This document shows, piece by piece, positions 12,756-13,174 of a stretch of DNA of 64,000 bases. The stretch covers positions 32,001-96,000 of the IMG/VR virus record IMGVR_UViG_3300023179_000042; one strand, 5' to 3'. Made by a program: the position numbers and the translations under genes. The number at the start of each line of letters is the position of its first letter. Position 1 is the stretch's first letter. The stretch is from a virus. The notes beneath the pieces were generated by a model. It searched no databases, was not told the origin of the DNA, and was given only the letters and a program-made list of their open reading frames with translations.

Positions 12756-13174
12756 AGGTGAACTTTGTTCACCTGCCCTTTCGCTTGTCGCTCATGGCAA
12801 ATTTACATCGAAGATGTTTAAGTATCATCTAGATTAAGTGGTCACACTTTGCCCGCACAGGGCAAAGATTTCTGGGCATCATCTGAGTTGCACAGTCACA
12901 TAGCGTTAGAGCATTACAGTGGCGGTTGACCGGTACCACGAGCTCAGTCTTTATTCAACGGCAGGAGCATACAAATACGCTATCATTCATATGTCCGTTA
13001 GGGAATTACCCTTCTTTTTGCCTATTCATTCCTCTTCAAACAACCAAATCGCAGGTCTTAGTTAGCGATCCTCATCCTTTCGGGTAGTGGTTGAGTACTC
13101 TTAGCGGCGAGAGATTTCCGTCCCTGCGACCCGAGGTCCAGGTTTAGAGCACACGAACTTGGCCTGTGCGAGCC
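12756..13174 (-). ncRNA. Putative large structured non-coding RNA of unknown class, immediately 3' of the GIY-YIG gene
   Basis: A ~420-nt gap with no ORF in the track, GC-richer than other intergenic DNA. Many nested helices, a 7-bp pseudoknot, G-U pairs favouring the minus strand, two TGTGAC-N10-AGATGAT modules and a terminal 8-bp hairpin. Confidence 0.7.

What the first reader, a model, noticed from the sequence alone, without database searches (positions are those of the whole stretch)
12756..13174. Large ornate pseudoknotted ncRNA starting right after the GIY-YIG stop codon
Seen, minus strand: this is the largest gap in a genome whose genes otherwise abut, and it is full of nested helices. 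These include CAACCA/TGGTTG (13093-88/13046-41) enclosing a GAAA-capped hairpin and ATCGC/GCGAT, and AACGG/CCGTT enclosing CATATGAAT/ATTTGTATG (12993-85/12976-68), which is continuous only with G-U pairs and so favours the minus strand. The loop of that stem (GATAGCGT) is complementary to ACGCTAT at 12906-12900, a 7-bp pseudoknot. There are also nested GAGC/GCTC, GTGG/CCAC and CGG/CCG stems, the CTTTGCCC/GGGCAAAG hairpin (12867-47) and a terminal AGGTGAAC/GTTCACCT hairpin (12774-56). It lacks the hallmarks of tRNA, tmRNA, RNase P and group I/II introns. Inference: an uncharacterised large structured RNA (scaffold, ribozyme or guide), co-transcribed with gp47-gp46-GIY-YIG.
Basis: partly seen in the sequence, partly recalled or inferred. 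Interest (0 to 1): 0.9.

Follow-up and report, generated by a model that had tools for sequence, protein, structure and literature searches.

The report
Extended Polynucleobacter-1 twin-box phage RNA
The gene-free gap behind a small nuclease gene of this uncultured freshwater T4-like phage encodes a real, multiply knotted non-coding RNA of about 430 bases; its first third is an orphan motif catalogued in 2010, the rest is uncatalogued and carries one 7-letter word twice, always identical, for a reader that is still unknown.

Summary
Observation confirmed. Window 13185-12756 (minus strand) is a structured RNA gene. It is conserved full-length in 129 distinct phage contigs. 60 of 85 tested base pairs, four pseudoknots included, change on both sides yet stay paired (92% paired against 33-40% when partners are slid).

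It is not wholly uncharacterised. Positions 13174-13038 are a full-length match to Rfam RF01718 (Polynucleobacter-1, 120.8 bits, cut-off 37), an orphan motif of unknown function. The 2010 paper already noted it downstream of this same gene family (PSSM2_218, here recognised as GIY-YIG). The remaining ~290 nt match no Rfam family.

The strangest feature is two 7-nt boxes, A-CUC-AGAUGAU and A-UCU-AGAUGAU, 54 nt apart. They are identical to each other in 129/129 copies, through 12 variants and about 46 independent changes. No complementary partner was found.

Sister RNAs with other 5' domains, and bacterial copies with quite different boxes, keep the twin-box 3' domain. One bacterial copy lies beside a Zorya defence system and an integrase, with no nuclease. 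The nuclease family occurs in 356 cultured phages, and the four cultured relatives scanned lack the RNA. It is therefore probably a neighbour, not a partner.

Function is unknown. My best guess is bivalent base-pairing to a partner in trans. This scan has reported the same family on more than ten other genomes.

The parts
12756..13185 (-). Whole structured RNA, about 430 nt. The 5' end is at least at 13182 and the 3' end is at the terminal hairpin.
   Evidence: nhmmer profile positions 2-443 are matched in 150 full-length copies, 129 of them unique.
13038..13174 (-). 5' domain: full-length Rfam RF01718 (Polynucleobacter-1) match.
   Evidence: cmscan gives 120.8 bits against a gathering score of 37, E 1.1e-25, model positions 1-141.
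13104..13182 (-). Pseudoknot PK1. The leader 13182-13178 lies in the last codons of the GIY-YIG ORF and pairs with hairpin loop 13108-13104.
   Evidence: A1 columns 24-28/119-124: 3 of 5 pairs change on both sides. 29 double events on the tree. The leader stays with the RNA where DNA is inserted after the ORF (L053).
13149..13174 (-). 5' H-type pseudoknot: 13174-71/13164-61 interleaved with hairpin 13169-65/13153-49.
   Evidence: helices 2 and 3: 5 of 5 pairs of the hairpin covary and it is 99.6% paired.
13041..13093 (-). Three-way region: stem 13093-88/13046-41 encloses the GAAA-capped hairpin 13083-76 and stem 13070-65/13052-47.
   Evidence: helices 7-10, 98% paired. 60 and 41 double events.
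12968..12993 (-). Hairpin 12993-84/12977-68. Its loop forms pseudoknot PK2.
   Evidence: 9 of 10 pairs covary. 175 double events.
12900..12983 (-). Pseudoknot PK2: loop 12983-78 pairs with 12905-00.
   Evidence: 6 of 6 pairs change on both sides, 94.5% paired. 68 double events.
12909..12959 (-). Central core. Stems 12945-42/12912-09 and 12938-35/12923-20, plus pseudoknot PK3 (12959-55 with loop 12929-25). It holds the near-invariant GGUACCGG.CAACCGCC.
   Evidence: helices 13-15. 44 and 79 double events. Invariant columns are listed.
12878..12899 (-). Module 1: GUGAC, a variable stretch, the A-CUC handle, then box 1 AGAUGAU (12884-12878).
   Evidence: Box identity with box 2 holds in 129 of 129 copies. 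The flanks pair better with their own partner than with swapped ones (-4.27 against -3.10 kcal/mol, p 1e-6).
12847..12867 (-). Hairpin CUUUGCCC/GGGCAAAG between the two boxes.
   Evidence: helix 16: 89% paired, 2 pairs covary. 18 double events.
12824..12845 (-). Module 2: GUGAC, a variable stretch, the A-UCU handle, then box 2 AGAUGAU (12830-12824).
12775..12816 (-). Small UUCG-type hairpin (12816-05) and an irregular hairpin (12798-75) with the conserved GAGCG-NNAA-GCGAAA.
   Evidence: A1 columns 615/644, 616/643, 619/639 and 620/638 covary. The motif is kept in all RNA types and in bacteria.
12756..12774 (-). Terminal hairpin AGGUGAAC/GUUCACCU.
   Evidence: 100% paired, 6 of 8 pairs covary. 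94 double events.
12741..12748 (-). TATAAATA, the T4 late-promoter consensus, directly after the RNA and ahead of the next ORF (ATG at 12713).
   Evidence: Read from the sequence. It is conserved after the hairpin in the alignment. Its function as a promoter is inferred from T4 knowledge.
13175..13609 (-). Upstream neighbour: a 144-aa GIY-YIG protein (T4-GC213 / phrog_447, mislabelled 'NAD synthetase' in GenBank).
   Evidence: PF19835, E 3.5e-33. phrog_447, E 6.8e-37. 34% identical to PSSM2_218, E 7e-20.

Best explanation
This is an independent gene for a ~430-nt, multiply pseudoknotted non-coding RNA of an uncultured freshwater T4-like phage. It is the full-length form of the orphan Rfam family Polynucleobacter-1 (RF01718).

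The RNA has three parts:
- the catalogued 5' domain;
- an uncatalogued central double-pseudoknot core;
- an uncatalogued 3' 'twin-box' domain.

Shown: the fold, its conservation, the strand, the identity of the two boxes, and the fact that the RNA occurs with other 5' domains and without the nuclease.

Inferred (about 40% on its own): the 3' domain is the working end. Its two boxes are exposed behind the constant handles A-CUC and A-UCU. They act as two identical base-pairing sites that bind two copies, or two sites, of one nucleic-acid partner made elsewhere. The 5' and central domains would serve as an exchangeable scaffold.

The GIY-YIG gene is a conserved neighbour whose last codons overlap the RNA's leader. 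It is not the RNA's protein partner.
For: Real RNA:
- 92.4% of 4280 cells are paired, against 78.6% in shuffles (0 of 500 reach it) and 32-40% with slid partners.
- 60 of 85 pairs change on both sides.
- There are tens of independent double changes per helix on a tree.
- G-U cells number 956 against 82 A-C cells.

Family: RF01718 at 120.8 bits.

Full length: 112 of 120 loci found by an internal DNA pattern hold profile positions 2-443.

Twin boxes:
- They are identical in 129 of 129 unique copies, with 12 variants and about 46 state changes on the tree. No non-identical intermediate is seen.
- The fixed CUC/UCU difference lies inside the identical stretch, which argues against gene conversion.
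- Other RNA types at the same locus keep the 3' domain with their own identical boxes: ACAUGAA, GGUGAAU and GGAUGAU.
- So do bacterial copies, with AGCGAAA and GGCGAAA.
- The box is therefore reprogrammable over evolution while the handles stay fixed. That is the behaviour expected of a base-pairing specificity element.

Independence from neighbours:
- At least 7 unrelated protein families follow the RNA.
- The bacterial copy lies between a DUF6641 gene and a 224-aa ORF, beside ZorABCD and an integrase, with no GIY-YIG.
- The nuclease family is single-copy in 356 cultured phages. The four relatives scanned lack the RNA.
Against: No partner was found:
- No column of the RNA covaries in Watson-Crick fashion with the boxes.
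- No complement sits at a consistent place within 6 kb.
- No syntenic, box-matching site occurs in five phage records, one of them 99% complete.
- There is no enrichment in the three bacterial genomes.

Other weaknesses:
- Within the phage clade box variation is restricted (R-N-A-U-R-A-N), which is more like a constrained motif than a free guide.
- Exposure in a hairpin loop is supported only for box 1.
- No expression data could be obtained.
- In phages the RNA sits within 60 nt of the GIY-YIG gene in 59 of the 64 pattern-selected loci that have that gene upstream (64 of 66). A functional link therefore cannot be excluded.
Confidence: 0.5

Rival explanations
1. The two boxes are twin binding sites for the two halves of a dimeric sequence-specific RNA-binding protein. 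The RNA would be a protein sponge or the scaffold of a ribonucleoprotein.
For: The two sites are identical, share a framing (GUGAC ... A-YYY-box) and always number exactly two. Variation within the phage clade is restricted. No nucleic-acid partner was found.
Against: About 46 independent concerted changes, and wholly different boxes in sister types and in bacteria, would each need a matching change of protein specificity. A protein that tolerated A or G at a position would not force both sites to carry the same base.
Confidence: 0.15
2. The boxes are two identical cleavage sites for a sequence-specific endoribonuclease. Cleavage would release the ~50-60-nt hairpin unit between them. This would resemble type III (ToxI-like) antitoxin repeats or phage pseudo-antitoxins that decoy a host toxin.
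For: Direct repeats lie 47-61 nt apart and bracket a stable conserved hairpin. One bacterial copy lies in a defence island next to Zorya. That phages are known to mimic ToxI is from my own knowledge and was not checked here.
Against: There are always exactly two sites and never an array. A 430-nt knotted scaffold is unnecessary for a decoy. No ToxN/AbiQ-like gene is next to the bacterial copy. No read data are available to show RNA ends.
Confidence: 0.1
3. The RNA is the cofactor or guide of the adjacent minimal GIY-YIG nuclease. This is the nuclease-RNA system proposed in sister notes of the first reader.
For: 64 of 66 RNA loci found by an RNA-internal pattern have the gene directly upstream. 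The ORF end overlaps the RNA leader (helix 1). The protein has only the catalytic domain.
Against: The same protein family (T4-GC213) is a single-copy gene in 356 cultured T4-like phages. No gap or RNA follows it in P-SSM4 and phiN3, and no RF01718 match was found in Melnitz, P-SSM4, phiN3 or a Variovorax phage. The RNA occurs without the gene in bacteria and in L106 and L127. Insertions of 0.2-1 kb separate the two in L029, L030 and L053.
Confidence: 0.07
4. It is a cis-acting element, either a 3' UTR/terminator of the early operon or a leader of the downstream late gene. Rfam's 2010 entry left open a cis-regulatory role.
For: The position is fixed between an early-type gene block and a TATAAATA late promoter. 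The 2010 table marked the motif as possibly cis-regulatory.
Against: The downstream genes belong to at least 7 unrelated families and have their own promoter after the RNA. No terminator-like site is present. The same RNA lies in a quite different context in bacteria. Its size and four pseudoknots far exceed known leaders.
Confidence: 0.07
5. Copy-and-re-pair model. A polymerase copies the unit between the boxes. The new strand, made on one box, re-anneals to the other box (template jumping) and yields tandem repeats, as in DRT2 or telomerase-like DRT10.
For: This is the only reading that needs no genomic partner, which explains the failed partner hunts. DRT2 ncRNA needs two identical short motifs, ACA-1 and ACA-2, beside a stem-loop, and activity is lost when their homology is broken (bioRxiv 10.1101/2024.05.08.593200).
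Against: No RVT_1 reverse transcriptase is found in a 99%-complete phage record carrying the RNA, nor in the bacterial genome. Unit length (47-61 nt) shows no multiple-of-three preference and the concatemers keep no conserved open frame. The CUC/UCU mismatch lies inside the homology.
Confidence: 0.03

Closest known systems
Polynucleobacter-1 RNA motif (Rfam RF01718; Weinberg et al. 2010, Genome Biol 11:R31, PMC2864571)
   Same: The 5' 137 nt match the whole 141-position model at 120.8 bits. The genomic setting is the same, downstream of PSSM2_218-like genes in freshwater samples. The function is unknown.
   Different: The catalogued motif is a third of the real RNA. The central double pseudoknot, the leader pseudoknot, the twin-box domain and the terminal hairpins are not in Rfam. 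The 2010 paper found no copy in any purified phage. Here the RNA lies on more than 100 distinct viral contigs.
Large ornate phage- and prophage-associated RNAs of unknown function (GOLLD, ROOL, OLE; Nature 2025, PMC12286853)
   Same: It is a large, highly structured, protein-independent-looking RNA linked to phages and mobile DNA, with no known function.
   Different: There is no sequence or Rfam relationship. Those RNAs form homo-oligomers through complementary contacts. Identity-covarying direct repeats are not a described feature of them.
DRT2 / DRT10 template ncRNAs (bioRxiv 10.1101/2024.05.08.593200; PMC12039810; 10.64898/2026.06.29.735271)
   Same: It is a pseudoknotted ncRNA in which two short identical direct repeats beside a stem-loop must stay identical.
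   Different: No reverse transcriptase is nearby or elsewhere in the genome. The boxes are 7 nt rather than 3 nt. The unit is not codon-phased.
IS110 bridge RNAs and other two-loop guide RNAs (from my own knowledge, not checked here)
   Same: There are two separate loops with constant framing and reprogrammable short specificity sequences.
   Different: Bridge-RNA loops carry different guides for target and donor and sit next to their recombinase. Here the two boxes are identical and no recombinase is linked in phages.

Membership tests
Rfam RF01718 Polynucleobacter-1 | Covariance-model score at or above the curated gathering score over the full model | tested here: met
   120.8 bits against 37, model positions 1-141 of 141, E 1.1e-25.
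Rfam RF01718 Polynucleobacter-1 | The model's helices are kept by compensatory changes in relatives | tested here: met
   helices 3-10 are 73-99.6% paired, and most pairs change on both sides.
Rfam RF01718 Polynucleobacter-1 | Location downstream of GOS11034 / PSSM2_218-like genes (Weinberg 2010 supplement) | tested here: met
   The upstream protein is 34% identical to PSSM2_218, E 7e-20. 64 of 66 pattern-selected loci have this gene upstream.
Group I / group II introns, RNase P RNA, tmRNA, tRNA | A match to the family covariance models | tested here: not met
   No match even at E up to 10 in 12500-13400 and none at gathering score in the window. The flanking ORFs vary between loci and are not exon halves.
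RNA-guided nuclease system (RNA plus adjacent effector) | Obligate co-occurrence of the RNA and the effector gene | tested here: not met
   The effector family is in 356 cultured phages, and none of the four scanned has the RNA. The RNA occurs without the effector in bacteria and in 2 phage loci.
DRT2-like template ncRNA | An associated reverse transcriptase | tested here: not met
   PF00078 is absent from G154 (99% complete), from three partial phage records and from G052, while the control genomes do match.
DRT2-like template ncRNA | A repeat unit that gives a stop-free concatemer frame | tested here: not met
   Unit lengths of 47-61 nt are spread evenly over the residues mod 3 (32, 47 and 50). 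Most units have no open concatemer frame.
Type III antitoxin-like repeat RNA | A tandem array processed at each repeat, with a linked endoribonuclease toxin | tested here: inconclusive
   There are always exactly two boxes. No toxin family was recognised next to the bacterial copy. Processing could not be tested because no reads were available.

The most novel reading that the evidence does not exclude
The twin-box domain is the specificity module of an undescribed RNA-directed machine. The constant handles (A-CUC and A-UCU) present one freely reprogrammable 7-13-nt word twice. The RNA would then either bring together two copies of the same nucleic-acid sequence (a symmetric 'bridge'), or let a strand made on one box re-pair with the other (template jumping without a classical reverse transcriptase). 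The exchangeable 5' domains would act as scaffolds or sensors.
Probability: 0.08. Interest if true: 0.9.

Novelty: new variant of a known kind. Interest (0 to 1): 0.6.

Why it matters
The work has four consequences.

- An orphan Rfam motif of 141 nt turns out to be the first third of a ~430-nt RNA with four pseudoknots. The RNA is abundant in freshwater T4-like phages and also occurs in bacterial mobile or defence islands. The family model and its annotation should be extended.
- The 3' domain shows identity covariation. Two direct copies of a short word change together about 46 times and are never caught apart. Standard RNA covariation tools do not look for this signal.
- In the literature I could reach, the only mechanism that needs such identity is template jumping in DRT2.

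If the boxes turn out to be plain protein sites, the finding remains a solid extension of a known family.

Tried and rejected
1. **Coding readings.** The 36-aa ORF over the modules is not conserved. Box spacing of 47-61 nt has no multiple-of-three bias. Mini-ORFs starting at GUG are broken by 1-2-nt indels.
2. **Stop-codon (URA) and start-codon (AUR/UUG/GUG) readings of the box.** Both fit the phage variants. The bacterial boxes RGCGAAA rule them out.
3. **Translational bypass (take-off and landing codons).** No ORF enters or leaves the region.
4. **Box C/D or k-turn reading of GUGAC...GAUGA.** The GAUAA, CAUAA and GCGAA variants break the required G-A pairs.
5. **Sigma-70 -10/-35 reading.** The spacing is wrong, and no promoter excess was found.
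6. **Intramolecular partner.** MI with APC finds only box-to-box identity. RNAalifold's pairing of box 1 with the A-UCU of module 2 is contradicted by position 2.
7. **Cis partner within 6 kb.** No clustering was seen.
8. **Predicted common partner.** Only GGG can pair with both CUC and UCU, so the partner would be rc(box)+GGG+U.
   - The count is at control level in three bacterial genomes.
   - Own-box 10-mers occur in 3 of 4 independent phage records, but their flanks mismatch.
   - The one perfect 13-mer lies in sense orientation inside a 378-aa ORF.
   - No syntenic box-matching site occurs across five records.
9. **Hairpin-loop display of box 2.** The swap test gives no signal.
10. **Bacterial copies by strict DNA pattern.** All 75 hits were chance. 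Copies were then found with the Rfam model.
12. **Cultured-phage DNA similarity.** blastn found none.

Full report
**Setting.** The window is part of a 105,753-base IMG/VR viral record, about 30% complete. It carries T4-type genes: a gp46/Rad50-like ATPase at 15694-13916, a T4 baseplate protein and others. On the minus strand the gene order is as follows:
- gp46-like gene;
- a 106-aa ORF;
- a 144-aa GIY-YIG gene (13609-13175; PF19835, E 3.5e-33);
- a stretch of about 460 nt without a convincing ORF;
- a 250-aa ORF that has its own TATAAATA (12748-12741) in front.

**Observation.** Folding the single sequence is unimpressive: -124 kcal/mol, z = -1.24 on the minus strand and -0.65 on the plus strand. 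The case therefore rests on comparison.

Homologues were collected in two ways.
- A protein search with the GIY-YIG gene gave 80 loci. About 57 of them carry the whole ~400-nt stretch at 67-87% nucleotide identity.
- A scan of viral contigs with a 16-base pattern taken from inside the RNA gave 120 loci. 112 of them hold the RNA over profile positions 2-443.

Together this makes 150 full-length copies, 129 of them distinct.

I wrote down a structure of 85 pairs in 17 helices, four of them pseudoknots, and tested it on a 51-sequence MAFFT alignment.
- 92.4% of cells are standard pairs. Shuffles give 78.6% (0 of 500 reach the observed value). Sliding the partners by 1-3 columns gives 32-40%.
- 60 pairs change on both sides.
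- The covariation score is 0.411, against 0.05-0.08 for the slid controls.

On a tree of the 129 copies the main helices each show tens of independent double changes: 64, 60, 41, 175, 68, 44, 79 and 94. G-U cells outnumber A-C cells 956 to 82, which fixes the minus strand as the RNA strand.

- AACGG/CCGUU does not stand. Part of its 3' strand instead pairs with the loop 12929-25.
- CGG/CCG is invariant and clashes with that pseudoknot.
- The RNA also begins before the stop codon: 13182-78 pairs with the loop 13108-04.

**What part is known.** cmscan places a full-length RF01718 (Polynucleobacter-1) at 13174-13038 with 120.8 bits against a cut-off of 37. Nothing else in Rfam 15 matches the remaining ~290 nt, even at E up to 10.

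The only paper in the library that names the motif is Weinberg et al. 2010. Its supplement makes three relevant statements:
- most copies lie downstream of GOS11034 genes with possible homology to PSSM2_218;
- no copy was seen in a purified phage.

PSSM2_218 belongs to T4-GC213 and is labelled 'NAD synthetase'. It is 34% identical to the window's GIY-YIG protein, E 7e-20. The gene association was thus seen in 2010, although the gene was not then recognised as GIY-YIG.

**The twin boxes.** The 3' domain holds two similar modules. Each consists of GUGAC, a variable stretch, an A, a pyrimidine triplet and a 7-nt box.
- Box 1 is CUC-AGAUGAU (12887-12878).
- Box 2 is UCU-AGAUGAU (12833-12824).

In all 129 distinct copies the two boxes are identical to each other. 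There are 12 variants of the form R-N-A-U-R-A-N. Parsimony on the tree needs about 46 changes of state, and no copy is caught with unequal boxes.

The identity also reaches the one to three bases before the triplet and parts of GUGAC. The triplets themselves stay CUC and UCU. This fixed difference inside the identical stretch argues against gene conversion.

The spacing is 47-61 nt with no preference for multiples of three, so the unit is not coding.

The flanks of box 1 pair better with their own partner than with swapped ones: -4.27 against -3.10 kcal/mol, p 1e-6. Box 1 therefore probably sits in a hairpin loop. For box 2 the test is silent.

**A modular family.** Some loci carry a different RNA behind the same gene.
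- L003-5, L009, L016, L039, L066 and L077 have other 5' and central parts and no Rfam match.
- L007 has another 5' part.
- L073 is a further variant.

All of them keep the 3' domain: module, hairpin, module, small hairpin, the GAGCG-NNAA-GCGAAA hairpin, the terminal hairpin and TATAAATA. Each has its own pair of identical boxes: ACAUGAA, GGAUGAU and GGUGAAU.

The Rfam model also finds copies above the cut-off in 3 of 151 Burkholderiales genomes of 1.8-1.9 Mb. These have the RF01718 domain and twin boxes A-CUC-AGCGAAA / A-UCU-AGCGAAA, or GGCGAAA. That word shares little with the phage boxes.

This result removes my interim readings of the box as 'sense codon plus UAA/UGA' or as a start codon. 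It shows that the handles are constant while the word is free.

One bacterial copy lies on a 149-kb contig. It sits beside a complete type I Zorya system (ZorABCD), a DUF6641 gene, three unknown ORFs and a tyrosine integrase, with no GIY-YIG gene.

**The nuclease.** In phages the linkage is tight. Of 66 loci found through the RNA alone, 64 have the gene upstream, and 59 of those 64 have it within 60 nt. Even so, several facts point to a conserved neighbour and not a partner.
- The protein family is a single-copy gene in 356 cultured T4-like phages: cyanophages, Melnitz at 51% identity, phiM12-like and others.
- In those I inspected the next gene abuts it, and no RF01718 match is present.
- The RNA exists without the gene in bacteria and in L106 and L127.
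- In L029, L030 and L053, 0.2-1 kb is inserted between the two, and in L053, the locus inspected, the leader stays with the RNA.
- The genes downstream of the RNA fall into at least seven unrelated families.

**Mechanism.** Two sequences that must stay the same, not complementary, most simply both pair with one third strand.

Only GGG can pair with both CUC and UCU, so a common partner would read rc(box)-GGG-U. I did not find it:
- not in the RNA itself;
- not within 6 kb;
- not at a syntenic place in five phage records, one of them 99% complete;
- not above control level in the bacterial genomes.

The partner may be host-encoded, or lie in parts of genomes I do not hold, or may not exist.

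The one published mechanism I could find that needs identical direct repeats in an ncRNA is template jumping in DRT2. However, no RVT_1 enzyme is present in these genomes, and the unit is not phased.

My leading but weakly held model is therefore bivalent pairing to a trans partner. The rivals, with low odds each, are a dimeric protein reader, twin cleavage sites, a nuclease cofactor, a cis element and template jumping.

The RNA is a full member of a known orphan family. It is about three times longer than catalogued and has a striking, unexplained identity-covarying pair of boxes.

This scan has reported the same family on more than ten other genomes with the same conclusions. I reached the twin boxes, the bacterial copies and the neighbour-not-partner reading from my own calls.

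What I have not seen in those notes:
- the sister RNA types that share only the 3' domain;
- the Zorya/integrase setting of a bacterial copy;
- the constancy of the handles against a free box;
- the identification of PSSM2_218/T4-GC213 with the GIY-YIG gene.

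Noticed in passing
window 2212-2295 (-): A full-length match to Rfam RF02980 (freshwater-2 RNA, 61.8 bits against a cut-off of 49.9). This is a second orphan freshwater motif in the same phage.
   Followed up: no
L003:3420-3900, L009:3420-3870, L016:3690-4165, L039, L066, L077 (+ strand): A second RNA of about 470 nt sits behind the same GIY-YIG gene. 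It has no Rfam match and a different 5' and central sequence, but the same twin-box 3' domain with boxes ACAUGAA. It is a candidate new family.
   Followed up: partly
L284 (G052:C4:62000-81999), RNA at about 10150-10718 (-): A bacterial copy of the RNA lies in an island with a complete type I Zorya system (ZorA-D at 12262-19947) and a 212-aa tyrosine integrase at 8730-9368. DUF6641 and three unknown ORFs flank the RNA.
   Followed up: partly
window 13175-13609 (-); GenBank records of P-SSM2, P-SSM4, phiN3 and others: The GIY-YIG family T4-GC213 / phrog_447 is labelled 'NAD synthetase' in many phage records, although Pfam places it in SegE_GIY-YIG. This is probably a propagated misannotation.
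   Followed up: partly
window 11973-12725 (-), especially 12400-12560: The 250-aa ORF after the RNA holds near-exact tandem repeats rich in Gly, Ser, Ala and Thr (GSASGATAGGTAPASSLSGTGAPT). Only its first ~50 residues are shared with the downstream ORFs of other loci.
   Followed up: no
L026, L069, L040, L063, L006 (GIY-YIG gene ends): In several relatives the GIY-YIG frame lacks the usual stop and runs 87-138 nt into the RNA's 5' domain. This is either a real extension or sequencing or assembly error.
   Followed up: no
L277:432-617 (Prochlorococcus phage P-SSM4): A manA RNA (RF01745, 184 bits) lies 2 kb upstream of the P-SSM4 homologue of the GIY-YIG gene. It is a known motif and unrelated to this RNA.
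   Followed up: no
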